Shown here piece after piece: positions 1 through 63,508 of a stretch of DNA of 64,000 bases. Under the pieces are notes generated by a model. The model ran no database searches. It had not been told where the DNA came from and was given only the letters and a program-made list of their open reading frames with translations. The stretch is from positions 5,369 to 69,368 of the forward strand of contig JBDRPX010000019.1 of assembly GCA_043826565.1 (NCBI GenBank), in the 5' to 3' direction. The DNA is from Candidatus Omnitrophota bacterium. Lineage in GTDB: Bacteria; Omnitrophota; Gorgyraeia; B26-G9. The number at the start of each line of letters is the position of its first letter. Position 1 is the first letter of the stretch. A program made the position numbers and the translations under genes.

Positions 1-1343
1 TAAAAGGGGCGGTTATCTGCGGCTTGGCCCGGTCATTGAATAAAGATATTGAAGCTGCCGGAGCGGCTTTAAAGCCGGCAAAACGCCGGCGCATTCATGT
101 ATTTTTGGCAACATCAAAAATTCACATGAAATATAAGCTTAAAAAAGCCGAAAGTGAAATTGTAAAAATCGCTCAGTCCGCGGTTAAATACGCGAGTAAA
201 TTTACCGATGATATCCAATTTTCTCCGGAAGATGCATCGCGTACGGAAAGAGATTTTCTCTTTCGGGTAATTGAGAGTGTGATCAAAGCCGGAGCAACTA
301 CGGTAAATATTCCGGATACTGTCGGCTATGCTCAGCCGGCTGAGTTTGGTGATCTGATCGCTTCAATTGGTAATAATGTGCCCAATATTAATAAAGCGAT
401 AATTGCCGTACACTGTCATAATGACTTAGGTCTGGCAGTGGCTAATTCTTTGGCGGCGATTAAAAACGGAGCCGGGCAGGTTGAATGTACGATCAACGGG
501 ATTGGTGAGCGGGCCGGAAATGCGGCTTTAGAAGAAATTGTTATGAGTTTACTTACCCGCAAGGATTTCTTTGCGGGAAAATCAACCCGGATAAAAACTA
601 AAGAGATTTATAAGATAAGCCGCCTGGTTAGTAAGTTAACCGGGTTTACGGTTGCTCCGAACAAGTCGATTGTCGGGGGAAATGCATTTCGGCATGAATC
701 AGGCATTCATCAGGATGGTGTGCTTAAAAAAAGACAGACATATGAAATCATCAGCCCGGAAACAGTTGGTTTTTACGGAGAAGGTTTAGTTTTAGGTAAA
801 CATTCCGGCCGGCACGCTTTATCCGAACGGCTGAAAGGTTTGGGTTTTACCTTGAATAAAAAGCAGCTCGAATCTGCTTTTGCCAGATTTAAAGACTTAG
901 CGGATAAGAAAAAAGAGGTATTTGAAGAGGATTTGATTTCTATTGTTGAAGAGCAGATGAAAGGTTTGCCGGAAGTCTGGAGTCTGGTGGGTTTTGAGTT
1001 CTGCGGGGGTATGCAGGTGAACCCAAAGGCGACCGTGACCCTGAAAATGAAAGATAAAACCTTTGAAGCAACCTCTTGCGGCGATGGACCGGTAGATGCC
1101 AGTTATAAAGCGATCGAAAAGATAACTAAAATAGATGCCCGGCTCAGAGATTATTCTATCCAGGCGATAACCCGGGGCAAAGATGCTTTAGGTGAGGTAA
1201 ATTTGAAACTTGAAATTAAAAAAGCGGAAGTTCCCGGACGGGGGGCAAGTACAGATATTATCGAAGCATCGGCTAAAGCTTATCTTAATGCTATTAACCG
1301 GTTTTTATTTAAGACAAAGAAAGCGCATAAAGTGAGGTTGTAA
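1..1343 (+). CDS. 2-isopropylmalate synthase / citramalate synthase family (LeuA/CimA), 5'-partial; the reading frame is open to the window edge
   Basis: HCHNDLGLAVANSL motif of the HMGL-like aldolase family. C-terminal LeuA-dimerisation-type regulatory domain. No in-frame stop upstream of position 24, so the N-terminus lies outside the window. Confidence 0.75.
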   Translation, partial: KGAVICGLARSLNKDIEAAGAALKPAKRRRIHVFLATSKIHMKYKLKKAESEIVKIAQSAVKYASKFTDDIQFSPEDASRTERDFLFRVIESVIKAGATTVNIPDTVGYAQPAEFGDLIASIGNNVPNINKAIIAVHCHNDLGLAVANSLAAIKNGAGQVECTINGIGERAGNAALEEIVMSLLTRKDFFAGKSTRIKTKEIYKISRLVSKLTGFTVAPNKSIVGGNAFRHESGIHQDGVLKKRQTYEIISPETVGFYGEGLVLGKHSGRHALSERLKGLGFTLNKKQLESAFARFKDLADKKKEVFEEDLISIVEEQMKGLPEVWSLVGFEFCGGMQVNPKATVTLKMKDKTFEATSCGDGPVDASYKAIEKITKIDARLRDYSIQAITRGKDALGEVNLKLEIKKAEVPGRGASTDIIEASAKAYLNAINRFLFKTKKAHKVRL

Positions 1344-1346
1344 TAC

Positions 1347-2204
1347 ATGGATCATGGGGGAGTTAAGCAGCGATACGGACTTATCGGATATCCGGTTAAA
1401 CACAGTTTCTCAGCGGCAATGCATAATGCCGCTTTTGCTCATTTAGGCATGAACGCGCAATATGAATTATTTGAAGTTAAGCCTTATGAATTACATGATT
1501 TTTTGATTTCTTTACGCGATCAGGGGGTTTTAGGAGTTAATATTACGATTCCTTATAAAGAAAAGGTCGTTACTTTTTTGGATGATGCGTCTATCGAGGT
1601 TAATGAAATAGGAGCAACTAATACTCTTGTGGTTGATAATAATGGAAAACTCAAAGGGTTTAATACCGATAGTGCCGGGTTTGCTTTCCATATCGCAAAG
1701 TTAGGGGTAAAGGTCAGCCATACGGCAATTATCGGTGCCGGCGGCGCGGCAAAAGCAGTGGCCATGGCTTTATTAAAAAACGGCGCCCGGGAAATCGCGA
1801 TTTATGATATAGATCAAAAAAAGAGCCTGGAATTAGTTAATAGAGTTAAGAGAATAAATTTTCAATGCAATGCTTATATGGTGGAGTCCATTCAGGAGTT
1901 ACAGATAAAAGATAAAAATTTCGTGGTAAATACAACTCCGGTGGGCATGAAGAAGGAAGATCCGTGTCTTCTGGAAAAAAATATGATTCATCCGGAGCTT
2001 TTTATCTATGATGTGATTTATAATCCTCCGGTTACTAAGATGTTAGAGCTTGCTAAAAATAATGGCGTGCAGTTTAGTAATGGGTTAAGGATGCTTTTAT
2101 ACCAGGGGATGCTGGCTTTTGAGCAATGGACCGGTAAGCCGGCTCCGGAAAAAGTAATGTTTGAAGCATTACAGAAAGAAGTCGGAAAATGCCAGAATTC
2201 TTAA
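1347..2204 (+). CDS. aroE: shikimate dehydrogenase
   Basis: N-terminal 'GYPVKHSFSAAMHNAAF' shikimate-binding motif. Rossmann 'IIGAGGAAKAV'. About 285 aa. Confidence 0.85.
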   Translation: MDHGGVKQRYGLIGYPVKHSFSAAMHNAAFAHLGMNAQYELFEVKPYELHDFLISLRDQGVLGVNITIPYKEKVVTFLDDASIEVNEIGATNTLVVDNNGKLKGFNTDSAGFAFHIAKLGVKVSHTAIIGAGGAAKAVAMALLKNGAREIAIYDIDQKKSLELVNRVKRINFQCNAYMVESIQELQIKDKNFVVNTTPVGMKKEDPCLLEKNMIHPELFIYDVIYNPPVTKMLELAKNNGVQFSNGLRMLLYQGMLAFEQWTGKPAPEKVMFEALQKEVGKCQNS

Positions 2205-2977
2205 TTAAGGTTTGTGTGTTTATCTTCGGTTCGATAATCGGAAGTTTTTTGAATGTTTGTATCTATCGGATGCCGCGGGAGCTTTCGGTAAATAAACCAA
2301 AGCGTTCTTTTTGTCCGAATTGCAATAAGCAGATCGTCTGGTATGATAATATTCCGTTTTTAAGTTATTTGCTGCTTGGCGGCAAATGCCGGTTTTGCAA
2401 AAAACATATCTCTTTTAATTATTTTTTTGTAGAATTTCTTACGGCGATCCTTTTAGTTTTTTTATATGGTTTTTTCGGAATGTCGGTCAAGTTTTTTGTT
2501 TACGGAGTTTTAAGCTGCGCATTAGTTGTCGCGACGTTTATTGATTTTGATTTTCAGATTATTCCTGATGAAATAACCCTTGGGGGTTTGGTTATCGGGA
2601 TTGTTTTAAGTATTATATTCCCGGTTTTACATGGGGCGGAATCGCGTATTGCGGCATTATTTCAGTCTGTTCTCGGAGTGCTGGCCGGAGGCGGCAGTAT
2701 TTATATGATCGGCAAAGTCGGAGAGATGACTTTTAAGAAAGAGAGTATGGGTGGCGGGGATGTTAAATTTCTGGCTATGATCGGTTCTATTCTGGGCTGG
2801 AAAATGGCTTTACTGATATTCTTTATTGCTCCGTTTTTCGGAGCTATTGTCGGAATAATTATGAAATTAAAAAAAGGCGCGGAAGTTATTCCCTATGGGC
2901 CCTATTTGTCTTTAGCAACGTTTTTAGTGATTTTATGGGGAAAAGAGATATTAAAATATCTATTCCCTATTTACTAG
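2189..2977 (+). CDS. pilD: type IV prepilin leader peptidase (A24 family)
   Basis: Zinc-binding CPNC...CRFC tetracysteine motif. Polytopic membrane protein with the conserved Asp-containing loops. Overlaps the aroE stop by 16 nt. Confidence 0.8.
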   Translation: MPEFLIKVCVFIFGSIIGSFLNVCIYRMPRELSVNKPKRSFCPNCNKQIVWYDNIPFLSYLLLGGKCRFCKKHISFNYFFVEFLTAILLVFLYGFFGMSVKFFVYGVLSCALVVATFIDFDFQIIPDEITLGGLVIGIVLSIIFPVLHGAESRIAALFQSVLGVLAGGGSIYMIGKVGEMTFKKESMGGGDVKFLAMIGSILGWKMALLIFFIAPFFGAIVGIIMKLKKGAEVIPYGPYLSLATFLVILWGKEILKYLFPIY

Positions 2978-2990
2978 CGGAGGTAGAGAA

Positions 2991-4013
2991 ATGTTAAGAT
3001 TTATAAGTGCGGGAGAGTCTCACGGAGAATGTATTATGGCTATTCTGGAAGGACTGCCTGCGGGATTGAGGGTAAAAGAAGATGTGATTAATAAAGATCT
3101 TTATCGTCGTCAGCAGGGATATGGCCGCGGCGGGAGAATGAAGATTGAGACAGACAAAGTAAAGATACTTTCCGGGATAAAAGGCGGGTTGACCCTCGGC
3201 AGTCCGGTAGCCTTAATGGTCAAAAACAAGGATTTTAAAATTAATGAATTGCCTCCGATCACGGAGCCTCGTCCCGGGCACGCGGATTTGGCCGGTGCGA
3301 TTAAGTATGGATTTTCGGATATCCGGTGTGTTTTAGAAAGAGCTTCCGCCCGCGAAACAGTTATTCGGGTGGCTGCCGGAGCCTTATGTAAAATTTTTCT
3401 AAATGAATTCAATATAAATATAAACAGTAAGGTAATTAGTGTCGGCGGGCAGACAAGCAATAAAAAAATTAAAGAATTGATTGATCAAGCTAAGAAAAAG
3501 GGAGATACCTTAGGCGGGGTATTTGAAGTCATTGCGGATAATGTGCCTGTAGGCCTGGGCACTCATGTTCATTATGACCGCCGTTTGGACGCGCGTCTTG
3601 CCGGGGCGTTGATGTCTATCCAGGGTATCAAGGGAGTTGAATTTGGTCTGGGTTTTGAAGCTGCTGACCGGCCGGGTTCAAAAGTGCATGACCAGATTTT
3701 TTATTCGCAGGAAAAAAGGTTTTTTAGAAAAACAAATAATGCCGGCGGATTAGAAGGCGGAATGAGTAACGGCGAGCCGATCATTGCGCGCTGCGCGATG
3801 AAGCCGATCGCGACACTGCAAAAACCGCTGCCGACTATTGATATGAAGACCAAAAAGGAAGTTCTTGCGTCGATACAGCGCTCGGACATATCTGCGGTAG
3901 AAGCTGCCGGAGTAGTTGGAGAGGCAATGACCGCGATTGTGCTTACGGATGTGTTTTTGGAAAGATTCGGACAGGATGATTTAAGGAAAATCAAAAAAGC
4001 GTATAAGTTATAA
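2991..4013 (+). CDS. aroC: chorismate synthase
   Basis: 'GESHG' and 'RPGHAD' chorismate synthase signatures. 340 aa. Confidence 0.9.
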   Translation: MLRFISAGESHGECIMAILEGLPAGLRVKEDVINKDLYRRQQGYGRGGRMKIETDKVKILSGIKGGLTLGSPVALMVKNKDFKINELPPITEPRPGHADLAGAIKYGFSDIRCVLERASARETVIRVAAGALCKIFLNEFNININSKVISVGGQTSNKKIKELIDQAKKKGDTLGGVFEVIADNVPVGLGTHVHYDRRLDARLAGALMSIQGIKGVEFGLGFEAADRPGSKVHDQIFYSQEKRFFRKTNNAGGLEGGMSNGEPIIARCAMKPIATLQKPLPTIDMKTKKEVLASIQRSDISAVEAAGVVGEAMTAIVLTDVFLERFGQDDLRKIKKAYKL

Positions 4014-4081
4014 TTGAAAATTTAAAAATAATTTATATTTTGTATTTTAACAAAGTAATACTGAAATAATAAAACATGATC

Positions 4082-4218
4082 TTTGATATCACAAAAACAC
4101 GTCTTTGAACTAAGTCCGCTGCGGCATCGTGCCTTGCGGCCGCGCGTTCTTACTATTTTGACATCCTTGTCAAAATTACGTTCGAAAGCGCCGTTCAAAG
4201 AGAATTTTTGTGTTATCT
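4082..4218. ncRNA. candidate structured RNA / repeat element, copy 1 (homologous to 63331-63466)
   Basis: About 85% identity to the second copy. Compensatory changes preserve three stems (GGCAtcgTGCC vs GTCATccATGAC; TTTTGACAtcctTGTCAAAA vs TTTTTGCAtcgTGCAAAAA; a closing stem gatatcAcaaaaa/tttttgTgttatc vs gatatcGcaaaaa/tttttgCgctatc). GC-rich relative to its surroundings. Confidence 0.4.
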
Positions 4219-4266
4219 ATAGGGTATTGTTTGTAATTTGTCTATTGTATATTGGAATTTACAATT

Positions 4267-4779
4267 ATGGGTATTCCGTTAAAGCATGAAAAAGTTAGAC
4301 TGATAATCGGACTTATTGGCAAAGAGTCTTTGTTTGATGATGTAAAAAAAGTTCTTATTAAAAAATTCGGTTCAATTGATTATGAAAGCGAATGTCTGAA
4401 CTTTAATTTCACGGATTACTATAATGCGGAAATTGGTACTGATCTTAAACGAAAATTCCTGAGTTTTAAAAAATATTTCCTGCCTGAAGAACTTTCCGAC
4501 ATTAAACTTTTCACGAATAAAGTTGAGGAAAAATTTCAAGAAATGCCGGGAAAACGCCGGGTAAATATTGACCCCGGATACCTTAATTTATCCAAACTGG
4601 TTTTAGCGACCACAAAAGATCATCAGCATCGTTTATATGTGGGTAAAGGTATATTTGCCGAAGTGACCCTGCGCTACCGGGGGAAGACTTTTATGGGCTG
4701 GGATTGGACCTATCCTGATTACCAAAGCGTTGAATATATAAAAATATTTAATCATATACGCAATAATTTATTAAAGTAA
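4267..4779 (+). CDS. DUF4416-family hypothetical protein
   Basis: About 170 aa with the 'IGLIG...LFD....L...FG.ID..S....F..TDYY..E.G' pattern typical of DUF4416. The ORF-track start at 4252 is a TTG; the ATG at 4267 is more likely. Confidence 0.5.
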   Translation: MGIPLKHEKVRLIIGLIGKESLFDDVKKVLIKKFGSIDYESECLNFNFTDYYNAEIGTDLKRKFLSFKKYFLPEELSDIKLFTNKVEEKFQEMPGKRRVNIDPGYLNLSKLVLATTKDHQHRLYVGKGIFAEVTLRYRGKTFMGWDWTYPDYQSVEYIKIFNHIRNNLLK

Positions 4780-4794: not shown

Positions 4795-4950
4795 AAAAAA
4801 TAAACAATATACAATGGACAAATTACAACCAAATTCCAATATACAAATCAACAAACTGAAATAATGCTGTGAAGTGAAATAAGTAAATTTTTTGAGTATT
4901 GGGAATTGTATATTGTTTGTAATTTGGATTTTGTTTATTGTAATTTAATA
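4795..4950. repeat. ~150-bp intergenic element with internal inverted symmetry, copy 1 (paralog of 34388-34553)
   Basis: Shares the blocks 'caaattccaatatacaaat' and 'ttgggaattgtatattgYttgtaatttggattttgtttattgtaa' with the second copy. It ends 5-10 bp before the start codon of the M48 protease gene. Confidence 0.5.
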
Positions 4951-4954
4951 AAAT

Positions 4955-6370: not shown

Positions 6371-7417
6371 ATGGGGGCGGGGTTGAAAATAGCACTTATT
6401 TATAATTTAAAGCGCAAAGTTGAAGACGGGATAGCTATTGATTATTTCTCCGAATTTGACAGCAAAAATACAGTAGATTCTTTATTTAATGCTCTTTGTT
6501 CTTTAGGGCATGAAGTGTCTCTTGTGGAAGCTGATAGAAATATGTTGTCCTGGCTGGGAGCGAATAAAGTTGATATTGTTTTTAATATTGCGGAATGTTT
6601 TGGCCGGGACAGGGAAGCTCAAGTTCCGGCAATCTGTGATTTTTTAAAAATTCCTTGTGTCGGCTCCGGAGCTTTAGGTCAGGCATTATCTTTGGATAAG
6701 GCCATGACGAAAAAAATATTATCTTATGAAAACATTCCTACTCCAAAATTTCAATTGTTTAAGTCTGCTCAAGAAAGCCTTAATGCTGACTTTAAATTCC
6801 CCCTGATTGTTAAGCCTAATGCGGAAGGTTCGGCAAAAGGAATAAATGTTTGTAATCTCGTAAATAACCGGGATGATCTGTTCCGGGAAATTGCCCGGAT
6901 AATCAGCCGATACAGACAGCCTGCGCTGGTCGAGGAATTTATTAACGGCCGGGAATTGACGGTTGGGGTTATCGGAAATAATGAATTAACCGTGCTGCCT
7001 ATTTTAGAAATTGATTTTAAAGGCTGCCAAAAAAGCGGTGAGCATTTTTATTCCTGGCGGATGAAAGAGTATCAGGGAAATGTTGAATTAGGACTTAATC
7101 CGGCTTTTTATTGTCCGGCGGTATTGGATCTTGAACTTAAGGCAGAAATTGAGAATATTGCCCGGCGTGTGCATGAGGTGATTAATTGCTGCGATTTTTC
7201 GCGGGTGGATATCCGTTTGCAGGAGCACACAAATATTCCCTATGTTTTAGAAACTAATTCATTGCCGGGACTGGATCCGGTAGAAAGCAATCTGACGATG
7301 ATGGCGCAAGCGGCGGGGATAGGATATTCTTCGCTGATCAGAATGATTTTAGAAAGTGCTTTAAGCCGATATCAATCAGAAAATATATATGTGCAGGCAG
7401 GGAGGGAAAACCAGTAA
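6371..7417 (+). CDS. ATP-grasp ligase of the D-alanine--D-alanine ligase family
   Basis: Ddl-like N- and C-domains (KIALIYN...; ELTVGVIGN; LETNSLPG). The stop lies 1 nt before the likely start of the downstream kamA-like gene. Confidence 0.7.
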   Translation: MGAGLKIALIYNLKRKVEDGIAIDYFSEFDSKNTVDSLFNALCSLGHEVSLVEADRNMLSWLGANKVDIVFNIAECFGRDREAQVPAICDFLKIPCVGSGALGQALSLDKAMTKKILSYENIPTPKFQLFKSAQESLNADFKFPLIVKPNAEGSAKGINVCNLVNNRDDLFREIARIISRYRQPALVEEFINGRELTVGVIGNNELTVLPILEIDFKGCQKSGEHFYSWRMKEYQGNVELGLNPAFYCPAVLDLELKAEIENIARRVHEVINCCDFSRVDIRLQEHTNIPYVLETNSLPGLDPVESNLTMMAQAAGIGYSSLIRMILESALSRYQSENIYVQAGRENQ

Positions 7418-8665: not shown

Positions 8666-9901
8666 ATGACTAAGATGAATATCACGGATTTCTTAATTAA
8701 AAAAGCAGAGCTTAATGATCAGGATATAAATGATCCGCAGATACGCGCGCGTTACGGAAGCTTGGAGGGCTGGGTTAGCGTGCTGGCTAATCTGGTGCTT
8801 TTTATTACTAAACTTAGCGTGGGTCTTTTTAGCGGAAGTATCAGTATTATTGCCGATGCTATACATACTCTCTCTGATGTTGCTACATCAGCAGTGGTTA
8901 TTTGGGGTTTTAAAGTAGCCCGAAAACCGGCAGACAAAGAACATCCTTTCGGGCACGGCCGCATGGAAGATATAACTACTTTGATCATTGCTGTTCTTTT
9001 ATGTGTTGTCGGAGTGGAAATATTATTACAATGTGTGGAAAGGATTTCCCAGCCTCCGGAAGTTAAAGCTAATATTTTTATATTCATTGTTCTGGCGGGG
9101 TCGGCAGTGGTAAAAGAGTGGATGGCCCGGTTTTCGTTTTCACTCGGAGGAAAAATAGATTCCTCGGCGCTTAATGCCGACGGATGGCATCACCGAAGTG
9201 ATGCTATATCAACTATTTTAGTAATTATTGCGGTTATTTGTTCGATGTTTAAGCTGTTTATTTTTGATGCGCTGCTTGGCGGTGTAGTTGCCGCTTATAT
9301 AATATATACCGGGATAAGATTGGTTAAAGAGGCAAGTACTCATCTTTTGGGTAAAGGTATTGATGAGAGTCTGCGGGATAAGATCAGGACTATTGCGGTG
9401 TCTGTAGACGGAGTTGAAGGAGTCCATGATATTGTGGCCCATGATTATGGTACGCATAAAGCGATTTCTTTGCATGTGGAAGTAGCGCGTTCTTTAAATT
9501 CTGTAGCCGCGCATCGCATCGCGGCTACTGTGGAAACCCGGCTGGCAAAAAATATAGTATCGAGTCCGATCGTGCATATTGACTTAAAGCGTAAAAAAGG
9601 AAAAAATGTTACCTCGGAAATGATGACTTTAAAGTCGGTTATTAAGAAATATCCGAAAATAATTCATTATCACGGAGTGCAGATGTCCAGCACCGAAAGC
9701 GGGGATTTTCTAAACTTACATATTGTTATTCCCCGGGATATGAATATTGAACAATCCCATGAACTGGAGCATCAGGTAAGAGAGTCTTTACAGCCGTATT
9801 TTAAAGATTTTACTATTAACATGCATGTAGAGCCTTGTAATGCAAAATGCGCTTTGTGCTCTCAGTCGTGTAAACAGTCAGTCAGAGAGCAGAGGGCATA
9901 A
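8666..9901 (+). CDS. cation diffusion facilitator (CDF) family metal efflux transporter with a Cys-rich C-terminal extension
   Basis: Six TM helices. 'HTLSDV...HPFGHGRME' CDF signature. The C-terminus carries 'CNAKCALCSQSCKQS'. Confidence 0.8.
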   Translation: MTKMNITDFLIKKAELNDQDINDPQIRARYGSLEGWVSVLANLVLFITKLSVGLFSGSISIIADAIHTLSDVATSAVVIWGFKVARKPADKEHPFGHGRMEDITTLIIAVLLCVVGVEILLQCVERISQPPEVKANIFIFIVLAGSAVVKEWMARFSFSLGGKIDSSALNADGWHHRSDAISTILVIIAVICSMFKLFIFDALLGGVVAAYIIYTGIRLVKEASTHLLGKGIDESLRDKIRTIAVSVDGVEGVHDIVAHDYGTHKAISLHVEVARSLNSVAAHRIAATVETRLAKNIVSSPIVHIDLKRKKGKNVTSEMMTLKSVIKKYPKIIHYHGVQMSSTESGDFLNLHIVIPRDMNIEQSHELEHQVRESLQPYFKDFTINMHVEPCNAKCALCSQSCKQSVREQRA

Positions 9902-9903
9902 TT

Positions 9904-10824
9904 GTGAAAAAAAAGTTTAAATCAGGGTATGTGGCTTTTCTTGGTAAGCCTAATGTCGGCAAATCAACGCTTTTGAACCATTTTTTAAAAGAAAAGCTTT
10001 GCATAATATCTCCCAAGCCTCAGACGACCCGGGACAGTATTCAGGGAATACTCTCAGAACCCGGATATCAGATCATTTTTGTCGATACTCCGGGTATACA
10101 CCAGCCTAAAACCGCGCTGGGAAAGCATATGAATGATTTGGCCCAGGACGCGGGTATTGACGCGGATGTGATGATCTTAATTGTCGATGCCTCAACCGGC
10201 ATAACCTATGAGGACCGGCAGATATTTAACTGGTTAAAGTCAAAGTATAAAGCCATTGAAAATAAAAGAGTTATGATTTTGATTAATAAGATTGACCTTA
10301 TTGAAAAGAACGAAGTTTTGCCGATAATTGCCAAATGCCAGAGAGAATTAGCCCAGATCAAGATAAGTGATTATATCCCGGTTTCCGCAATAGACGGAGA
10401 TAATCTTGACCTGATATTCGGGAAAATGCTGGAATATTTGCCTTTTGGCCCGGTTTATTACCCCGAAGACCAGCTTACCGATAAAAATGAGCGGTATGTG
10501 GTCGCGGAATTGATCCGGGAGCAGGTATTGGGCTGCTGCCGGGAAGAAGTTCCTCATTCTGTGGCTGTTCTGGTGCAGGCCATGCAGGATAATCCCGGGC
10601 GTAAGACCTTGATCCAGGCCACAGTGTATGTCGAGAAAAAAACCCAGAAAGGTATTATAATCGGAGAAAAAGGCCAAATGCTTAAAACCATCGGCAGTTT
10701 GGCCCGGGAGCAGATCGAGGGATTTTTGGGCCGAAAAGTATATCTTGAGCTTTGGGTTAGGGTGCAGGATAATTGGCGTAAGGACGAGGCTTTCTTAAAA
10801 AAGCTGGGTTACGGAGATAAATAG
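9904..10824 (+). CDS. era: GTPase Era
   Basis: G1 'GKPNVGKSTLLN', G3 'DTPG', G4 'NKID', and a C-terminal KH domain. Confidence 0.9.
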   Translation: MKKKFKSGYVAFLGKPNVGKSTLLNHFLKEKLCIISPKPQTTRDSIQGILSEPGYQIIFVDTPGIHQPKTALGKHMNDLAQDAGIDADVMILIVDASTGITYEDRQIFNWLKSKYKAIENKRVMILINKIDLIEKNEVLPIIAKCQRELAQIKISDYIPVSAIDGDNLDLIFGKMLEYLPFGPVYYPEDQLTDKNERYVVAELIREQVLGCCREEVPHSVAVLVQAMQDNPGRKTLIQATVYVEKKTQKGIIIGEKGQMLKTIGSLAREQIEGFLGRKVYLELWVRVQDNWRKDEAFLKKLGYGDK

Positions 10825-18916: not shown

Positions 18917-18924
18917 TTTGTTAA

Positions 18925-19100
18925 AAAGTTAAAATGCAAAAATCAAAACTCAAAAATACAAGTCAAAAATCAGAATTGATAAAAAATTATTATAAAGAAA
19001 TGATTTTTAAATATTTTATAACACATAATAATAGATTAATTAATGAGTTTTAAATTTTGAATTGCAATTTTGACTTTTGAATTTTAAGTTTTGACATAAG
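18925..19100. repeat. inverted pair of A-rich 'TCAAAA/TTTTGA' heptamer arrays flanking an AT-rich core
   Basis: Left arm 'gcaaaaatcaaaactcaaaaatacaagtcaaaaatcag', right arm 'caattttgacttttgaattttaagttttgac'. Confidence 0.5.
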
Positions 19101-19153
19101 GTTGAATTTATTAAAAATATTGTTTAACATTAGATAGTTTCGGGAGATAGTTA

Positions 19154-23611: not shown

Positions 23612-24484
23612 ATGGAACGTTATATAGATAAGTTTTTGAGTTATTTAAAAGTAGAAAAAGATTCTTCTATCCATACTGTAATAAACTATAGTGTGGATTT
23701 AAAAGATTTTGCTTCCTTTATCCAGGATAAAGATATCAATGATATCGATGTCCTGGATGTCCGAAAATTTTTAGTTTCTTTACGCCAAAAGAATTTCAAG
23801 AAAGTAAGTATCGCCCGGAAGATGGCTTGTTTGCGTTCATTTTTTAAGTTCTTATGCCGGGAAGGTCATTGTAAATCCAATCCGATGGTGGGGTTAGTCG
23901 GACCTAAACTGGATAAAAAACTGCCGATTTTCTTAGGTGAAGATGATGTCAGCAAGCTTTTGGATACTCCGGTAGAAAAGGATTTGCCGGGGTTAAGGGA
24001 TAAAGCGATATTGGAAACATTATACAGTACCGGGATCCGGGTTAGTGAGCTGGTGGGGCTGAATATTGAAAATGTGGATTTTATCGGAGGAGTTATTAAA
24101 GTATTCGGCAAGGGCCGGAAAGAACGGCTTGCTCCGATCGGAGATAAGGCTTTGCGGGCGATTAAAAATTATATTGATAAGCGCAACAAGGCTGCTCCTT
24201 CATCCGGCCGGGCTTTATTTTTGAATAAAGATAAAAAACGCCTTACAGATAGAAGTATCCGGAATATAGTCGAGAAATATATAAAAGTTGCCAGTCTGAG
24301 AAATGATATTTCGCCGCATAGCTTGAGACATTCTTTTGCTACGCATCTTCTGAACCGGGGAGCAGATTTGCGTGCGGTTCAGGAGTTGCTGGGACACGCT
24401 AATTTATCCACAACTCAGATATACACGCATCTTTCCACGGAAAAATTAAAGAATGTTTATGAAAAAACACATCCGAGGGCATAG
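23612..24484 (+). CDS. tyrosine site-specific recombinase XerC/XerD
   Basis: 'LRHSFATHLLNRGADLRAVQELLGHANLSTTQIYTHL' catalytic R-H-R-Y region. Confidence 0.85.
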   Translation: MERYIDKFLSYLKVEKDSSIHTVINYSVDLKDFASFIQDKDINDIDVLDVRKFLVSLRQKNFKKVSIARKMACLRSFFKFLCREGHCKSNPMVGLVGPKLDKKLPIFLGEDDVSKLLDTPVEKDLPGLRDKAILETLYSTGIRVSELVGLNIENVDFIGGVIKVFGKGRKERLAPIGDKALRAIKNYIDKRNKAAPSSGRALFLNKDKKRLTDRSIRNIVEKYIKVASLRNDISPHSLRHSFATHLLNRGADLRAVQELLGHANLSTTQIYTHLSTEKLKNVYEKTHPRA

Positions 24485-24494
24485 CCTAAAGTTA

Positions 24495-24550
24495 AAAATC
24501 AAAAATCAAAAGTCAAAAGTCAAAATGACAAATCAAAATTCAAAAATAAT
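24495..24550. repeat. 'AAAATCAAAAGTCAAAAGTCAAAATGACAAATCAAAATTCAAAA' heptamer array
   Basis: Tandem (A/G)TCAAAA units between xerC and the likely waaA start. Confidence 0.5.
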
Positions 24551-25859
24551 AGAGAAAAACAATCCGGTAGGTATCCCTCGTGCTGGAGCCGTTATTCTGG
24601 ATATATTATATGTAATACTTTCGGTTTTTTACTTGCCTACTTTTCTGTTTAACGGTAAGCATCGTCCGGGAATCGTTGAGCGTTGCGGAATTTATCCACA
24701 TGATGTGCTAAGGTTTTTAGCTAATAGCCGTCAGGTTATTTGGCTGCATGCAGTCAGTGTGGGTGAAATAAGAGCAGCGGTTCCTTTAATTGAAGCCCTT
24801 AGAGAAAAATATCCCGAAGCTCAGTTATTAATCTCGACAATTACTCCTACGGGGAATGCTGTTGCCCGGCAAATTGCCGTAGAGGGGGAACTTGTTATAT
24901 ATTTTCCGTTTGATTTAAGTCCGATTGTGCGAAAAGCAATTTCGATTATTAGGCCTAAAATGATTTTGATTATGGAAACAGAACTATGGCCAAATTTTAT
25001 TACCGAAGCATTCCGACAAGATATTCCCATAGCGATCATTAACGGACGCATTTCGGACAATGCTTTTTTGCGTTACAAAAAGGCCGGGTGGTTTTTTCGG
25101 CCGATCTTGAAAAACATAGATTTGTTTTGCATGCAGACACCGACTGACGCAAAAAGGATAGAGGCGATCGGTGCCCGGAAAAATAATATCCGGGTTACGG
25201 GGAACCTGAAATTTGACCAAATTATCCAGCCGGGAGAGGAAAATACCCTGGATCTTGGCCTGACCAAGAACCAACGTCTTATTGTTGCCGGAAGCACTCA
25301 TGATCAGGAGGAGCAGATTATTACGCAGGTGTTCATAAAATTAAAAGCTAAATATCCGGATATCCGTCTTTTGATTGCTCCCCGGCATCCGCATCGGGCC
25401 AAGGCCGTAGAGCAGGTCATTAAAGACTGTGGACTGACGGCTTTTTGTCTTAGTCAGATCAAACAGCAGGAAACAGCACCGGGTAATCAGGAAGTGCTTA
25501 TTCTTGATACGATGGGTATGCTTAATAATATTTACGCATTAGCGGATATTGTATTTATCGGCGGAAGCCTGGTCCCTCATGGCGGGCATAATCCTATTGA
25601 ACCGGCGGTTTGCGGTAAGCCGGTTGTTTTTGGTAAGCATATGTTTAACTTTGCGGAAATTGCCGGTATTTTTCTAAGCAACCAGGCGGCTGTTAGCGTT
25701 AAAGATGAGCAGGAACTGTATGATACTTTGCATAGTTTGCTTAAAGACGCAGATAAAAGAAGGGATCTTGCCCGGCGGGCACAGAAAGTTATTTCCGATA
25801 ATCGGGGCAGTGTGAAAAGGGTGATGGATATTATTACAGAGCAGTTTAAAATTGACTAG
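24525..25859 (+). CDS. waaA: 3-deoxy-D-manno-octulosonic acid (Kdo) transferase
   Basis: N-terminal TM helix, then 'VIWLHAVSVGEIRAAVPLIEAL' matching the WaaA/KdtA N-domain. The track start at 24453 lies inside the repeat array; the ATG at 24525 is preferred. Confidence 0.8.
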   Translation: MTNQNSKIIEKNNPVGIPRAGAVILDILYVILSVFYLPTFLFNGKHRPGIVERCGIYPHDVLRFLANSRQVIWLHAVSVGEIRAAVPLIEALREKYPEAQLLISTITPTGNAVARQIAVEGELVIYFPFDLSPIVRKAISIIRPKMILIMETELWPNFITEAFRQDIPIAIINGRISDNAFLRYKKAGWFFRPILKNIDLFCMQTPTDAKRIEAIGARKNNIRVTGNLKFDQIIQPGEENTLDLGLTKNQRLIVAGSTHDQEEQIITQVFIKLKAKYPDIRLLIAPRHPHRAKAVEQVIKDCGLTAFCLSQIKQQETAPGNQEVLILDTMGMLNNIYALADIVFIGGSLVPHGGHNPIEPAVCGKPVVFGKHMFNFAEIAGIFLSNQAAVSVKDEQELYDTLHSLLKDADKRRDLARRAQKVISDNRGSVKRVMDIITEQFKID

Positions 25860-27924: not shown

Positions 27925-28165
27925 CAAGAAGTTACAGATAGCTCAAAAGTTAAAATTCAAAATTCAAAATTGCAATTAAAAAATCAAAAGTTTAAAGATA
28001 CAATTGTTGAATATTATTGCGTATAAAATTATTGAAAACAAGAATGCTAAGTGTAAAAATGACATTAAGATGAATAACTTTTTAATTTTGCCTTGCCCGC
28101 CTAGCTGAGCTGGCGAGGCTGGCATTTTTGACATTTGCCTTTTGAGTTTTGATTTGGCAACTGGT
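27925..28165. repeat. inverted 'TCAAAA' heptamer arrays plus an embedded GC-rich hairpin motif (28085-28125)
   Basis: 'ctcaaaagttaaaattcaaaattcaaaattgcaattaaaaaatcaaaag' ... 'ttttgacatttgccttttgagttttgatttggc'. The core 'cccgcctagctgagctggcgaggctggc' matches 21335-21395. Confidence 0.5.
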
Positions 28166-28441: not shown

Positions 28442-31400
28442 ATGTTTAAATCAAGAAAAATTACAAAGGTAATTGCTGGCATTGTTCTGCAGGTGTTTTT
28501 CTTTTCAAATTTTGCTTTGTGCGGGGATATGAATATGTCTCCTGATAGGGTGCGGAAATCAGATACCCTTGCCCCCCATATCGCGATAGGAATATCTTCG
28601 ATGCAGCAGATGTTTGCAGATACAGTATATCCTAGATGGTCAGCCGGCCGGCAGCAGCTTTCCGTAAATACCGGTGCTAGCGAGAAAGTTTCAACAATAC
28701 ATACCATAGATAATTTAAAACAAAAAGTTAAAGCCGGTAAATCAAAAGGAGTTATTTTGGTAGCCGGAGGCGCCGGATATATCGGAGGGCATACTGACCG
28801 TGCTTTAATGCAATCCGGTTATGATATTGTAATTTTGGATAACCTGGTAAATGGCCGGCGTTTTGTAGTTGAGCGTAATCAGGCTTATGCTCAGGATAAT
28901 GATAAAATTTGTGTTTTTGAACAAGCAGATTTAAAAAATAGTGAAGATGTTCTCAAAAAATATAAAGAAGCGGGAATACCGATTGTCGGAACAATTCATT
29001 TTGCGGCATACATTGAAGTGGGAGTGTCCGTAGAGCGTCCGTGTGTTTATGCTTTAAATAATATTATTAATACTCTCCGGCTGCTTTATGCCGCAAAGAA
29101 ATATGGAGTTAAAAATATTGTATTTTCTTCGTCAGCCGCTGTATATGGGACTCAGAAGAAAATGCCTCTAGAGGAAGGCCGAAGAAAGCACCCCACCAGC
29201 CCTTATGGATTTAATAAATGGGTTATGGAATTAATGATTAAATCATTCCAGAAGCTGGGTATGTCTTGGATTGCCTTGCGTTATTTTAATGCTGCCGGGG
29301 CTGCTTCCGACGGAGCTTTAGGAGAATCTCATCCTCTTCCGGATTCACATGTAATCAGAGCGGTTTTTCGTAGATTTTTAGATGGATTGGCCGCGGCAAT
29401 ATTCGGCCGGGATTATCCCACGGCTGACGGTACTTGTGAACGTGATTATATCCATGTTGAGGATTTGGCAGACGCGCATGTCCGGGCAATTGAAGCTTTA
29501 ATTAACGGAAAAAACCAGGAAGCAATTAACCGAGCATATAATGTCGGAACCGGTGAAGGTCTTTCTGTGTTGGAGATGATTGGTCTGATTACTAAACTAA
29601 TGGGTAAGGTAGTTAAAAAATTCTTTGTCCGGGAAGAAGCCCGTCGAGCTGGTGATCCGCCGGCTTTGGTCGCCGATTCCAGTGATATTCAAAGGAACCT
29701 GGGATGGAAAGCAATGCGTGATCCGCAGGTAATTGTAAAATCAGCGATTAAATGGGATATTTCTCCCCGTCAGCCGGAAGAAATTTATGAACCAAAGCCG
29801 CTTCCGAATATCTCAGAGTATGATGCTTATCAGGAAATCAAAAAAGTTTTAGCAGAAGATAAATTGCTGCCTTTGGGAGTAAAACTTTATATTAAGTGGA
29901 AACTTTTATGGGAGATTAGAACGGCATTAAAGCAGCGTTATGCTAAGGCGGTTAAGTTACTTAAGGCCAAACAGAAAATATATGCGGATAATTCTGACCT
30001 GCAGAAGATGATCAGTGCAAATCTTTTCTTGTTAGAAAAATATAAATGGATTAGCATTGCTGACTTAAGTTTGTTTGGTAAAGGATCAGCTTTTGAAAGA
30101 ATGGATTCTCTGCTTCGTTTTATCGAAAAAGTTCAATGGCCTAAATTAGATAAACTTCCGGAAGATAAAGCTGAGCGTGAGCAATATATTCTTCAAGATC
30201 CGATAGTTGCTGATTGTAAAGCCCAAGAAGCTGTAAAAAATACTTTTTCTTATGATCAGGGGCATGTATTTGATTATTGGCTTCAGTTAAGCAGTGAGGG
30301 AAAAAAGGAATTGTTGGGTTGTCTTACGGTGATTAATTTTGAAGAAGCGTTTAGGCTTTATCAGGAAAACGTAAAAAATAAACAGGATATTAAAGTTGAT
30401 TTCGAATCATTGCATGCGCCGTCAAATATGATGACTGCCGAAGAGGCATTGGCAAGTAATCAGCATTTAATGGCAAATGCTTTACGCATGGGTAAAGTCG
30501 CGGTTTATTTACTTGCCGGAGGCAGCGGAACGCGTTTAGATTATGACCATCCTAAAGGGATGTTTGAGTCCAGCCCATTAAGCGGAGCTTCTTTATATCA
30601 GCAGTTTGCGGATGAGGTTAGGGAGTTGGGTAATCGTTACGAAGCAAAAATACCTTTACTTGTGCAGACTAGTGAAGGCACGGATGAAGAAACAAAAGTA
30701 TTCTTTGCCAATAATAATGATTTTGGGATCCAGGATTCTACCCGGTTTGAACAGCAGCGGAGTTTTCCGGTATTTGATAAAGACGGAAAATTTATTCTGA
30801 CGACAAAGAGTTCTATTCAGATCGGCGGTTTTGGTCATGGAGATGTTACGGATTTTGTTTTACGGAAAAACGACGTGCGCGGCTGGCTGCAGGATAATTT
30901 TGGGACAAAATATGTACTCATGGTTCAGGTGGATAATCCGCTTGCGGTTAAGCAATTAGAGGCAATGTTAGCGGCGCATTTAAAGGATGAACAGCAGCGC
31001 GCATATAATGCTCCGGAAAATGCCGCACATATCAGTTATGGGCTTATTGAAAAACTGGCCCCGGATGACCGGTTGGGAAATCTGGCGGAAACTGAAGAGG
31101 GTTTGTGGCAGATGGTTGAGTATTCGGAAGTCGATCAGCTAAGTGAAGCGGCAAAAAAGAAGATTGTTTCTGATGTGGGCAGTCCGAATATTTTAATGAT
31201 AAGTTTAGACGGTTTAGATAAATTGCCGGCACTTTCAGTGCATGTTGACCGCGGCAAAAAAGTTTTTTCAATGCAGGCCGAGGGAAAGGTTCCCGGAGAT
31301 AAAATGGAAACATTTGTTTTTGATACCCGGGCTTATGGCGCGGCAGTGGTCTTACCTAGATACAGCTCGTTTGCTCCGACTAAGAAAAGAGAGCGTGATG

Positions 31401-34387: not shown

Positions 34388-34553
34388 ATATGAAAATTAT
34401 AAATTACAAATTACAACTGCCAAATTACAAACAAATTCCAATATACAAATAACAATAAACAAAAATATTTTGTGTTTTGAAATTTGGGAATTGTATATTG
34501 CTTGTAATTTGGATTTTGTTTATTGTAAATTAACAATTGCACTATTTATGAGG
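34388..34553. repeat. ~150-bp intergenic element, copy 2 (paralog of 4795-4950)
   Basis: Near-identical 45-nt block 'ttgggaattgtatattgcttgtaatttggattttgtttattgtaa', ending about 25 nt before the start codon of the NYN/YacP-like gene. Confidence 0.5.
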
Positions 34554-38173: not shown

Positions 38174-39859
38174 ATGCAGAAAATTTGGAATTTCCGGGAA
38201 TTAGATTTACAAAAACAAAAAACCCTGGCAGCTCAGCTGGGGATATCTCCGATAATTGCTCAGATCCTGATCAATCGCGGGATAACTGACGCGGAAGCTG
38301 CGGCGGCTTTTCTTGACTGTGATATGGGAAATTGCCATGATCCTTTTCTGCTTAAAGATATGAGTAAAGCTGTCGAGAGAATAAAAAAGGCGATTGCTTA
38401 TAAAGAAAAGATTGTTGTTTACGGGGATTATGATGTTGATGGGTTGACCAGCTGCTCGCTTTTATTTTATGCGCTTTCGGCATTAGGCGCGGATGTGTCC
38501 TGTTATATCCCGCATCGAATAGAAGAGGGGTATGGAGTAAATCTCCAGGCCTGTGCCGGATTAAAAGAGCAAAAGACAGCTTTAGTGATAACTGTCGATT
38601 GCGGAATAAGTAGTTTTCAGGAAGTAGAATATCTGAATGCTTCCGGAATAGATATTATTATTACCGACCATCATCAGCCTTTAGATGATAAAGTTCCTCA
38701 GGCTCTATGTGTGATTAATCCTCAGCAGAAAGACTGCAAATATCCCTATAAAGAATTAGCCGGGGTCGGCATAGCGTATAAGTTGGCTCAGGGGATTTCC
38801 CGCGGCAGTTTGGATGTCTCGGAACATTTGGACCTGGTTGCCTTAGGAACAATTAGTGATGTTGCGCAATTAACCGGAGAAAACAGGATTTTGGTTAAAC
38901 ACGGATTAAAAGTACTTAGCCAGACAAAGAAAATCGGGCTGAGGGCTTTAATGGATGTAACCGGAATAAAAAAAGGAGCATTGTCTACTTATCATGTTGG
39001 TTTTATCCTGGGGCCGCGTTTAAATGCGATGGGACGGATGGGGTCAGCAGAAAAATCATTGCATCTTTTGCTAAGTAACAGCTATAAACAATCCTATGAA
39101 TTAGCTCTGGCTCTTGATCTTGAGAACAAGCAGCGTCAGAAGACAGAACAGAGGATTTTAAAAGAAGCTATGGCCATGGTCGATACAGAGATCAATTTTA
39201 AACATCACCGGACAGTGGTCTTACACAAGGATACCTGGCATCCCGGAGTTATCGGAATTGTTGCTTCCCGTATCGCGGAAAGATTTTACCGGCCGACTAT
39301 TTTAATTGCCACACAAGAGGGTGTAGGTAAAGGATCGGGCCGGTCTATCCGGGATTTTCACCTTTTTGACACTTTATCAAAATGTAATCATTTACTTGAA
39401 GAATTCGGCGGGCATGAAAATGCTGCCGGTATTAGTATTTTAGAAAAAAACCTGCAAAACTTTAAAGATATTTTTAATCAGGAAGCCTGCAAAGTGCTTA
39501 CTCCGGAAAAATTGCGTCCGGTGGTGGATATTGATATGGAAATTACTTTGGGTGCGCTTTCAGAAAAGCTGATCGAAGAATTAGAAAAATGCGCACCGTT
39601 CGGTATGGGGAATCCCCGTCCGGTATTTGCTTCCCGTAACTTGAAACTTAAACAAAAACCCCGTGTTCTTCGCAATAGTACATTCAAACTTTGGCTGACC
39701 GATGAAACGGTTACCTGTGAAGCTTTGGGAAGCCGTATGGGTGATATTGATGTTGCGTCTATTACCGACGGTCTTTCCATTGTCTATTCGCCCTCAATCA
39801 ATAATTGGCAGGGTATTTCCACTATCCAGCTGCAATTAAAAGACATACAGCTAATTTAA
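38174..39859 (+). CDS. recJ: single-stranded-DNA-specific exonuclease RecJ
   Basis: DHH motifs 'VYGDYDVDGLTS' and 'ITDHHQP', plus the DHHA1 domain. Confidence 0.85.
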   Translation: MQKIWNFRELDLQKQKTLAAQLGISPIIAQILINRGITDAEAAAAFLDCDMGNCHDPFLLKDMSKAVERIKKAIAYKEKIVVYGDYDVDGLTSCSLLFYALSALGADVSCYIPHRIEEGYGVNLQACAGLKEQKTALVITVDCGISSFQEVEYLNASGIDIIITDHHQPLDDKVPQALCVINPQQKDCKYPYKELAGVGIAYKLAQGISRGSLDVSEHLDLVALGTISDVAQLTGENRILVKHGLKVLSQTKKIGLRALMDVTGIKKGALSTYHVGFILGPRLNAMGRMGSAEKSLHLLLSNSYKQSYELALALDLENKQRQKTEQRILKEAMAMVDTEINFKHHRTVVLHKDTWHPGVIGIVASRIAERFYRPTILIATQEGVGKGSGRSIRDFHLFDTLSKCNHLLEEFGGHENAAGISILEKNLQNFKDIFNQEACKVLTPEKLRPVVDIDMEITLGALSEKLIEELEKCAPFGMGNPRPVFASRNLKLKQKPRVLRNSTFKLWLTDETVTCEALGSRMGDIDVASITDGLSIVYSPSINNWQGISTIQLQLKDIQLI

Positions 39860-63330: not shown

Positions 63331-63466
63331 TTTGATATCGCAAAAACATGTCTTTTCACTAAGTCCGCTGCGTCATCCATGACTTGCGGCCGCGCGTTGA
63401 ATCTATTTTTGCATCGTGCAAAAATTACGATTCAAAGCGCCGCTCAAAGAAAATTTTTGCGCTATC
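63331..63466. ncRNA. candidate structured RNA / repeat element, copy 2 (homologous to 4082-4218)
   Basis: See copy 1. Located in the 200-bp gatA-gatB intergenic gap, 30 nt from the gatB start. Confidence 0.4.
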
Positions 63467-63508
63467 TTTTGTTTTTGATTTTTCTCTCTACTTGCTACTT
63501 GTGTCTTG

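What the first reader, a model, noticed from the sequence alone, without database searches (positions are those of the whole stretch)
4082..4218. Two-copy ~136-nt GC-rich element with compensatory base changes: candidate novel structured RNA
The sequences at 4082-4218 and 63331-63466 are about 85% identical. The differences are concentrated in stems and are compensatory. Hairpin 1: GGCAtcgTGCC becomes GTCATccATGAC. Hairpin 2: TTTTGACAtcctTGTCAAAA becomes TTTTTGCAtcgTGCAAAAA. The terminal helix gatatcAcaaaaa/tttttgTgttatc becomes gatatcGcaaaaa/tttttgCgctatc. Covariation that preserves pairing is the hallmark of a functional RNA structure rather than a decaying DNA repeat. One copy sits in the aroC-DUF4416 gap. 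The other sits in the gatA-gatB intergenic gap, which is unusually long at about 200 bp. The ORF-track 68-aa 'protein' at 4083-4289 is most likely a spurious translation of this element.
Basis: seen in the sequence. Interest (0 to 1): 0.75.

Follow-up and report, generated by a model that had tools for sequence, protein, structure and literature searches.

The report
Dispersed Y-shaped structured repeat in Omnitrophota
The two look-alike 137-base stretches belong to a previously undescribed family of small folded repeats that sit at different intergenic sites in related uncultivated Omnitrophota bacteria. This makes it most likely a new ERIC-, bcr1- or MITE-like mobile repeat rather than a gene-specific regulatory RNA.

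Summary
Windows 4082-4218 and 63331-63467 are 82% identical (blastn E 9e-33). Both fold into the same three-way junction, and 12 of the 25 differing columns form 6 compensated pairs.

The host is a Candidatus Omnitrophota MAG. A covariance model built from the two copies found four more copies in two other Omnitrophota genomes. With six copies, 92.6% of pair cells are standard pairs and 22 of 44 pairs change on both sides (0/500 shuffles reach this).

The copies are not syntenic. They occupy five different spacers: aroC|DUF4416, gatA|gatB, leuA|aroE, CDF|era and aminotransferase|nirD-like. In other genomes the same junctions are only 2-6 nt long, although gene order is conserved. Orientation relative to the flanking genes is mixed (2 same, 4 opposite). 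G·U pairs and A·C mismatches are equally frequent (7 vs 7), so no strand is favoured.

There is no Rfam match, tRNA, promoter, terminator or transposase nearby.

Best reading: a new family of non-autonomous, structure-constrained dispersed repeats. The means of spread, transcription and any host function are untested. The 68-aa ORF is spurious.

The parts
4082..4218 (+). Copy A of the repeat, in the 253-nt aroC|DUF4416 spacer. It lies 48 nt upstream of the DUF4416 start codon (4267), in the same orientation as the flanking genes (model orientation).
   Evidence: (164 bits with R1)
63331..63467 (+). Copy B, in the 207-nt gatA|gatB spacer. The flanking genes are on the minus strand, so the element is inverted relative to them. 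It lies 29 nt upstream of the gatB start codon (63301).
   Evidence: 165 bits
4085..4097 (+). P1 5' arm of copy A (GATATCACAAAAA). It pairs with 4205-4217 (TTTTTGTGTTATC) to form the terminal inverted repeat / closing helix. Only the inner GCAAAAA/TTTTTGC part is conserved across genomes.
4205..4217 (+). P1 3' arm of copy A.
4102..4110 (+). P2 5' arm of copy A (TCTTTGAAC). It pairs with 4193-4201. The inner four pairs are lost on the + strand of copy B.
4110..4117 (+). Junction J2/3, CTAAGTCC. CTAAG is invariant in the five close copies.
4118..4140 (+). P3, the GC-rich hairpin with the conserved apical CAUCGUG. Pair 43-52 is G-C, U-A or A-U in different copies. L051 and L052 carry a differently sequenced but equivalent stem.
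4142..4191 (+). P4, a long interrupted hairpin: GCGC/GCGC base, a variable middle, and the apical helix TTTTGACA/TGTCAAAA. Several pairs are compensated.
4083..4289 (+). 68-aa ORF, a spurious translation of the repeat.
1343..1347 (.). Empty site: the leuA|aroE junction has a 3-nt spacer here. It carries the element in two other genomes (L047 6686-6822; L052 6856-6990).
9901..9904 (.). Empty site: the CDF-transporter|era junction has a 2-nt spacer here. It carries the element in L052 (13503-13640, in a 346-nt spacer).

Best explanation
This is a new family of small (about 125-137 nt) non-coding dispersed repeats in a clade of Candidatus Omnitrophota.

**Shown.**
- Copies sit in different short spacers between co-directional housekeeping genes in different genomes.
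- They occur in either orientation and lie 29-52 nt upstream of the next start codon.
- The same junctions are 2-6 nt long in relatives whose gene order is otherwise conserved.
- Every copy folds, on either strand, into the same Y-shaped structure: a closing helix made of short terminal inverted repeats (GCAAAAA / TTTTTGC), a second helix, and a three-way junction carrying a GC-rich hairpin and a long A/T-tipped hairpin.
- Stems are kept by compensatory substitutions, while junction and loop bases (CTAAG, CATCGTG, CGCGCG, AGCGCCG.TC) stay constant.

**Inferred.**
- The element has moved or been copied between spacers, so it behaves like a non-autonomous mobile element (ERIC-, bcr1-, REPIN- or MITE-like).
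- The fold is under selection because the single-stranded form is what is recognised for propagation. Recognition of an internal structured core is more likely than recognition of its ends, since the interior is better conserved than the outermost termini.
- Because it lies inside or between transcription units, it is probably co-transcribed as a stable RNA structure in whichever orientation it landed, and may secondarily affect mRNA processing or stability.
For: **Two window copies.** E 9e-33; strong folds on both strands.

**Four more copies.** Found by covariance models in two other Omnitrophota genomes:
- L047 6686-6822, 122 bits, E 1.5e-28
- L051 12676-12809, 86 bits, E 5e-22
- L052 13503-13640, 94 bits, E 1.4e-24
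- L052 6856-6990, 21.9 bits, E 4e-4, a diverged copy

**Element fragment.** A 17/17-nt fragment lies head-to-head with the L052 6856-6990 copy.

**Filled versus empty junctions** (gene tables; sequences):

| Junction | Filled | Empty or without the element |
|---|---|---|
| gatA\|gatB | 207 nt (window) | 6 and 2 nt (L040, L041) |
| aroC\|DUF4416 | 253 nt (window) | 2 nt (L052) |
| leuA\|aroE | 189 and 361 nt (L047, L052) | 3 nt (window, L048) |
| CDF\|era | 346 nt (L052) | 2 nt (window) |

**Covariation.**
- MAFFT plus RNAalifold on four copies, not fitted to any model: 14 pairs changed on both sides, on either strand.
- Six copies: 92.6% of cells paired, 22 of 44 pairs with double changes, 0/500 shuffles as high, slid controls 4 or fewer.
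- Each copy folds into the same architecture on its own.

**No strand preference.** Orientation relative to neighbours is 2 same and 4 opposite. G·U versus A·C counts in consensus pairs are 7 versus 7.

**No known RNA.** No Rfam family, tRNA, promoter or terminator.

**Precedent.** Compensatory changes occur in mobile repeats: bcr1 and REPINs (PMC3184786, PMC3116915).

**Assembly break.** A Logan contig ends inside copy A, as repeats often cause.
Against: - Only six copies were seen in about 230 kb sampled from six genomes. Whole-genome copy number is unknown.
- Copies within one genome are only 82-90% identical. That is not the near-identity expected of a recent transposition burst.
- No target-site duplication could be defined in the A/T-rich flanks.
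- No transposase or autonomous parent was seen in the window or the loci (and the gene tables).
- The outermost terminal bases are less conserved than the interior, which is atypical of DDE-type MITEs.
- Filled spacers are 50-220 nt longer than element plus empty spacer, so the insertions are not clean.
- Cross-genus conservation of 63-80%, in genomes whose GatB proteins are only 72-77% identical, implies strong purifying selection. A host-beneficial RNA would also show this.
Confidence: 0.6

Rival explanations
1. It is a host-functional structured RNA family, either a multi-copy small RNA gene or a cis-acting mRNA element (a processing, stability or translation-insulating signal placed just upstream of genes). 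On this reading it is kept by the host rather than spreading selfishly.
For: - There are many compensatory pairs and invariant junction and loop nucleotides.
- Conservation across genera exceeds what neutral intergenic DNA would keep.
- All six copies lie 29-52 nt upstream of the next start codon (gene tables, with hits).
- The reverse strand folds 2.6-10.5 kcal/mol better in 6 of 6 copies.
Against: - The neighbouring genes are functionally unrelated: DUF4416, gatB, aroE, era and an aminotransferase.
- Positions are not syntenic although gene order is.
- Orientation relative to the flanking genes is mixed.
- Flanks are not conserved, and there is no promoter- or terminator-like signal.
- G·U and A·C counts are equal, and z-scores of the two strands are similar, so no strand is singled out.
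Confidence: 0.22
2. It is the structured non-coding part of a larger, still unknown mobile system. One possibility is the paired ends of an IS200/IS605- or RAYT-type single-strand transposon (a PATE/REPIN analogue). Another is a mobile RNA with catalytic or guide activity, dispersed as solo copies.
For: - The interior, a structured core with invariant unpaired bases, is better conserved than the termini. This is the pattern expected when a protein or ribozyme fold recognises subterminal structure.
- Copies occur clustered and fragmented in one spacer.
- The P4 tip repeats the terminal GCAAAAA/TTTTTGC motif in two copies.
Against: - No HUH/Y1, RAYT, reverse transcriptase or TnpB-like gene lies next to any copy (gene tables).
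- There is no match to any Rfam ribozyme or to any other Rfam family.
- By reading the sequence, the junction strands do not fit the hammerhead core.
- There is no GTAG-type REP signature in five of the six copies.
Confidence: 0.13
3. It is a chance similarity or a decaying segmental duplication with no constraint.
For: Only two copies are present in the window itself.
Against: - The similarity has E 9e-33.
- Four more copies were found in other genera.
- 22 pairs covary and 0/500 shuffles reach the observed value.
- The flanks are unrelated.
Confidence: 0.01

Closest known systems
ERIC / IRU elements of Enterobacteriaceae (about 127 bp; listed as MITEs in PMC3184786)
   Same: - Similar size, an imperfect palindrome that folds stably.
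- Intergenic and probably co-transcribed, in either orientation.
- Conserved across genera yet present at different loci in different genomes.
- No coding capacity and no known mobilising enzyme.
- Transcribed ERICs can alter mRNA decay (PMC3184786).
   Different: - No sequence similarity.
- The fold here is a three-way junction rather than one long hairpin.
- The host is a different phylum.
- Transcription and any effect on mRNA are untested here.
- Only six copies have been seen so far.
bcr1 repeat of the Bacillus cereus group (about 155 bp; PMC3184786)
   Same: - Dispersed at positions that are not conserved between related genomes.
- A cruciform-like multi-helix fold kept by compensatory base changes.
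- About the same length.
   Different: - bcr1 has defined 5-bp direct repeats and is shown to be transcribed. Neither could be shown here.
- No sequence similarity.
REPINs / REP-BIME elements mobilised by RAYT transposases (PMC3116915)
   Same: - Inverted-repeat organisation that forms hairpins in ssDNA or mRNA.
- Compensatory changes are common.
- Extragenic, sometimes clustered.
- Conserved blocks separated by structure-constrained spacers.
   Different: - No REP-type GTAG palindrome doublet.
- No RAYT gene seen in the sampled DNA.
- The conserved part here is a complex core, not two short terminal REPs.
Classical bacterial MITEs (Correia/NEMIS, RUP, Nezha, Chunjie; PMC3184786)
   Same: - Under 200 bp and non-coding, with terminal inverted repeats and a stable fold.
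- Intergenic, and present or absent at given loci between genomes.
   Different: - No target-site duplication could be demonstrated, and no parent IS is known.
- The outermost termini vary more than the interior.
- Copies within a genome are only 82-90% identical.

Membership tests
Any Rfam 15 RNA family (including riboswitches, 6S, SRP, Y RNA and self-cleaving ribozymes) | Covariance-model score at or above the family's gathering threshold | tested here: not met
   There were 0 matches in the window and in L047/L051/L052 at gathering thresholds. Around copy A at E up to 10, only two noise hits appeared, at 11-14 bits against thresholds of 46-47.
MITE | Terminal inverted repeats flanking a short non-coding core | tested here: met
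   The window copies carry a 13-nt TIR, GATATCRCAAAAA / TTTTTGYGYTATC. The inner GCAAAAA/TTTTTGC part is shared by five copies. The ORF is spurious.
MITE | Target-site duplication (direct repeats) at the ends | tested here: inconclusive
   The flanks are A/T-rich. Copy B has TTTT on both sides, copy A has TTT and TAT, and the others show nothing consistent. The available empty sites come from genera too distant to define exact junctions.
MITE | Multiple copies at non-orthologous sites, and presence/absence between genomes | tested here: met
   Six copies and one fragment occupy five different spacers in 3 of 6 sampled genomes. Empty junctions of 2-6 nt occur elsewhere. Whole-genome copy number is not known.
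MITE | A related autonomous IS with the same ends, or a transposase acting in trans | tested here: inconclusive
   No transposase domain was found in the window ORFs or in the locus gene tables. No TIR pair brackets a candidate gene. Only about 230 kb was sampled, and the complete genomes could not be searched.
REP / REPIN (RAYT-associated) | Two short inverted REP palindromes (GTAG-type) and a RAYT gene flanked by them | tested here: not met
   No REP doublet organisation is present, and GTAG occurs near the end of one copy only (L047). No Y1/HUH gene appears in the sampled DNA (gene tables).
Cis-regulatory RNA (riboswitch or leader type) | Fixed orientation and position upstream of a functionally coherent gene set, conserved by synteny | tested here: not met
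   The downstream genes are DUF4416, gatB, aroE (twice), era and an aminotransferase. Orientation is 2 same and 4 opposite, and the sites are not syntenic.
Independently transcribed small RNA gene | Own promoter and terminator, and wobble-pair asymmetry favouring one strand | tested here: inconclusive
   No sigma-70-like promoter is shared, there is no intrinsic terminator, and the flanks are unconserved. G·U versus A·C counts are 7 versus 7. The reverse strand is more stable in 6 of 6 copies, but z-scores are similar. Expression data are not available.
ERIC-like / bcr1-like structured dispersed repeat (functional class, not a homology family) | About 100-160 nt, intergenic, either orientation, stable fold kept by compensatory changes, non-conserved genomic distribution | tested here: met
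   fold and covariation; distribution. Transcription, which is shown for ERIC and bcr1, cannot be tested with these tools.

The most novel reading that the evidence does not exclude
The element is a new kind of mobile structured RNA. On this reading the conserved three-way junction with invariant junction nucleotides is an active entity (a self-cleaving or self-ligating fold, or a guide/recognition RNA for an unidentified mobilising enzyme) that copies itself between operon spacers in Omnitrophota. It would not be a passive MITE.
Probability: 0.1. Interest if true: 0.8.

Novelty: new member of a known kind. Interest (0 to 1): 0.42.

Why it matters
- Omnitrophota are uncultivated, and a full-text search for the phylum name with 'intergenic' and 'repeat' returned nothing relevant. 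This gives a first defined repeat family there, with a working covariance model.
- It shows that covariation alone cannot separate 'functional RNA' from 'mobile repeat'.
- The element splits otherwise tightly coupled housekeeping operons such as gatCAB, so it may affect mRNA processing.
- Practically, it explains a spurious ORF and probably some assembly breaks in these MAGs.
- If the conserved core proves to be catalytic, or to be recognised by a dedicated enzyme, it would become a new mobile-RNA system.

Tried and rejected
**Searches that found nothing useful**
- Core-pattern scan of genome contigs: 37 hits, all single chance matches in high-GC genomes with no similarity outside the pattern.
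- Stricter core pattern in metagenomes: 0 hits.
- Terminal-repeat pattern in metagenomes: 3 loci (L042, L043 and L044; the last two are the same locus read in opposite orientations). They share GATATCACAAAAAC but have unrelated interiors, and in L043/L044 the motif is internal to a longer palindrome. They score 18-22 bits with the model. I treated them as unrelated or chance.
- Viral contig scans: 2 hits without model support for the core pattern and 0 for the terminal-repeat pattern.
- Six-frame pseudo-protein search, meant to catch other copies mis-called as genes: no hit.
- blastn against plasmids and phages: no match.
- Exact-protein look-ups of window GatB with the long ORF start, and of P0121: not on record.

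**Feature checks that came back negative**
- Rfam at gathering and E-value thresholds: nothing.
- tRNA/tmRNA: none.
- Promoter and terminator scans: nothing above shuffles.
- Hammerhead-type core: rejected by reading the junction strands, which are 7-9, 1 and 5 nt long and lack the CUGANGA/GAAA motifs.
- Transposase or RAYT partner: none among the window ORFs, and no terminal-repeat pair brackets a gene.

**Unresolved**
- Strand assignment from folding energies and wobble pairs.
- Target-site duplication.

Full report
**1. The observation**

A MAFFT alignment shows similarity that starts at TTTGATATC and ends at TATCT, with unrelated flanks. blastn gives 81.9% identity over 137/138 nt, E 9e-33, and no third copy in the window. 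A core pattern matches twice against 0.00 expected.

The element is not GC-rich as a whole: 42-43% against 40% for the window. It does have a GC-rich core.

Each copy folds far better than dinucleotide shuffles, and does so on both strands: -50.9 and -53.5 kcal/mol for copy A, -44.9 and -50.9 for copy B, z -4.8 to -7.1.

The shared structure has four helices:
- P1, a closing helix made of the terminal inverted repeats
- P2, a second helix
- P3, a GC-rich hairpin on the three-way junction
- P4, a long interrupted hairpin on the same junction

RNAalifold finds 44 shared pairs. Six have both sides changed and none is broken. The other 13 differing columns lie in loops or junctions, or break the inner part of P2 that only copy A forms on the + strand.

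**2. Organism and context**

GatB homologues name the host as a Candidatus Omnitrophota MAG. P0001 is 100% identical and sits on a 75.6-kb NCBI contig. The nearest relatives are only 72-77% identical.

Copy A lies between aroC and DUF4416, both on the + strand. It is 68 nt after the aroC stop and 48 nt before the annotated DUF4416 start at 4267.

Copy B lies between gatA and gatB, both on the minus strand. It is 41 nt after the gatA stop and 29 nt before the true gatB start at 63301. Relative to their neighbours, the two copies are therefore in opposite orientations.

The 68-aa ORF has no Pfam family, has no relative among called proteins, and is interrupted in copy B.

The window is ordinary housekeeping chromosome. 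It carries chemotaxis, topA, xerC-like, kdtA, heme and tat genes and no transposase.

**3. Looking for more copies**

Direct DNA pattern scans were mostly unproductive. Details are in the tried-and-rejected section, as is a six-frame pseudo-protein search.

What worked was fetching orthologous loci of relatives through GatB and DUF4416 homologues and searching them with covariance models built from the window copies.

| Copy | Genome | Score | Location |
|---|---|---|---|
| L047 6686-6822 (+) | GCA_024231215.1 | 122 bits, E 1.5e-28 | leuA\|aroE spacer |
| L051 12676-12809 (+) | GCA_018817585.1 | 86 bits, E 5e-22 | between an aminotransferase gene and a nirD-like gene, both on the minus strand |
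| L052 13503-13640 (-) | GCA_018817585.1 | 94 bits, E 1.4e-24 | CDF\|era spacer |
| L052 6856-6990 (-) | GCA_018817585.1 | 21.9 bits, E 4e-4 | leuA\|aroE spacer; a diverged copy |

The diverged L052 copy independently folds into the same architecture. Next to it is a fragment with 17/17 nt identical to copy A.

Full-sensitivity searches found nothing more in the window or in three further genomes. In total there are six copies in about 230 kb, in 3 of 6 genomes. None matches Rfam.

**4. Distribution**

Gene order around these sites is conserved among the genomes (gene tables), but the element is not.

| Junction | Spacer with the element | Spacer without it |
|---|---|---|
| gatA\|gatB | 207 nt (window) | 6, 2, 101 and 98 nt (L040, L041, L050, L051) |
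| aroC\|DUF4416 | 253 nt (window) | 106 nt (L047), 2 nt (L052) |
| leuA\|aroE | 189 nt (L047), 361 nt (L052) | 3 nt (window; L048) |
| CDF\|era | 346 nt (L052) | 2 nt (window) |

So the element has been gained or lost at individual spacers since these genera split. That is the behaviour of a dispersed, at least formerly mobile, repeat.

All six copies lie 29-52 nt upstream of the next start codon, while the distance to the upstream stop varies from 20 to 175 nt. This is suggestive of a target or selective preference, but n = 6.

**5. Structure and covariation with six copies**

An alignment made without any model (MAFFT plus RNAalifold on four copies) gives 14 pairs with changes on both sides, on either strand.

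On the six-copy model alignment, 92.6% of pair cells are standard pairs. 22 of 44 pairs have double changes, and 0 of 500 column shuffles reach this. Sliding the partners by 1-3 columns gives at most 4. That alignment is fitted to the model, so it leans towards the structure.

Pair 43-52 is G-C, U-A or A-U in different copies. P3 of the L051/L052 subfamily has a different sequence but the same hairpin and the same apical CAUCGUG.

Unpaired CTAAG, CGCGCG and AGCGCCG.TC are invariant in the five close copies. The outermost four P1 pairs differ between genomes. The interior is thus better conserved than the very ends.

Copy B is closer to the L047 copy (80%) than copy A is to it (75%), and copy A shares its P4 type with L051/L052. 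Sub-lineages therefore cross genome boundaries.

Copies of one sub-lineage in one genome are about 90% identical in the core. Their flanks share only weak similarity around the downstream start codon.

**6. Which strand**

However, shuffles of that strand also fold better, and z-scores are similar.

Within the consensus pairs, G·U pairs number 7. A·C mismatches, which would be G·U on the other strand, also number 7.

Relative to the flanking genes the model orientation is 2 same and 4 opposite. No promoter-like or terminator-like signal stands out, and the flanks are not conserved.

I conclude that the constraint is strand-symmetric as far as six copies can show.

**7. Interpretation**

The step from covariation to 'functional RNA rather than DNA repeat' is not valid. 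bcr1 and REPINs are mobile repeats whose folds are kept by compensatory changes (PMC3184786, PMC3116915).

Several features fit a non-autonomous dispersed repeat of the ERIC/bcr1/REPIN/MITE kind best (confidence about 0.6):
- non-syntenic distribution
- mixed orientation
- unrelated neighbouring genes
- clustering with a fragment
- short terminal inverted repeats

The better-conserved interior argues that a structured single strand, rather than a pair of transposase-binding ends, is what is recognised. This inference is not shown.

Because the copies lie between co-directional genes, they are probably transcribed by read-through in whichever orientation they sit. ERIC elements in that situation can change mRNA decay (PMC3184786). 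The same may apply here but is untested.

The main rival is a host-kept RNA element or small RNA gene (about 0.22). The strong cross-genus conservation and the constant distance to start codons speak for it.

A third reading (about 0.13) is that these are solo copies of the structured part of an unidentified single-strand transposon or mobile RNA. Chance or neutral decay is excluded.

**8. Limits**

- Six copies are too few for R-scape-type statistics.
- Complete genomes could not be searched.
- Target-site duplication, the mobilising enzyme, transcription and any effect on neighbouring genes are all open.

Noticed in passing
window 18924-19101, 24462-24575, 27933-28163, 34391-34541, 48534-48733, 51317-51376, 51813-51850, 53441-53506, 58352-58393: Many spacers begin right after a stop codon with A-rich low-complexity tracts of 6-8 nt period (AAAGTCAAAAATCAAAAGTC, GTCACAGGTCACAAGTCAC, GAAGACAGAAGACAG). 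These are often followed 50-100 nt later by the T-rich complement, giving long imperfect hairpins. Similar tracts fill spacers in relatives (L051 2941-3040, L052 13330-13420, L049 9675-9700). They may be terminators or another repeat class.
   Followed up: no
window 4804-4951 and 34391-34541; also 4213-4266: These are two copies (87-90% identical) of a palindrome of about 150 nt, made of TTGTAATTTG-type units. The right flank of copy A resembles one arm (D5, D11, I2, I9, I11). This is a second intergenic repeat family in the same genome.
   Followed up: no
L052 about 6795-6835 (+), next to L052 6856-6990 (-): A fragment of the element (AAAGCGCCGTTCAAAGA, 17/17 nt identical to copy A) is fused to unrelated hairpins. 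It lies head-to-head with a diverged full copy inside a 361-nt leuA|aroE spacer, so copies can be nested or clustered.
   Followed up: partly
L038 (= window 428-4168): The Logan contig carrying aroC ends at position 87 of copy A. This may be an assembly break caused by further near-identical copies elsewhere in the genome.
   Followed up: partly
L042 1576-1709: A 128-nt palindromic element in a high-GC metagenome contig shares the 17-nt terminus TTGATATCACAAAAACA with copy A but has an unrelated interior. It also sits about 30 nt upstream of a gene start. This could be coincidence or a distant relative sharing only the ends.
   Followed up: partly
L049 9675-10000: The aroC|DUF4416 spacer of GCA_043814605.1 is 326 nt long but contains no copy of this element. 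It may hold a different insert.
   Followed up: no
window 63405-63425 and 63340-63347 / 63453-63460; L047 6759-6780: In copy B and the L047 copy, the tip of P4 (TTTTTGCA...TGCAAAAA) repeats the terminal P1 motif GCAAAAA/TTTTTGC. The element therefore contains an internal inverted copy of its own ends.
   Followed up: no
window 28442-33169, 42264-46103, 39805-42030: Three unusually large ORFs stand out. One is a 1575-aa fusion of epimerase/dehydratase, UDP-glucose pyrophosphorylase-like and HAD domains. One is a 1279-aa protein with only weak PGM and PGI domain hits. One is a 741-aa ORF with no Pfam family.
   Followed up: no
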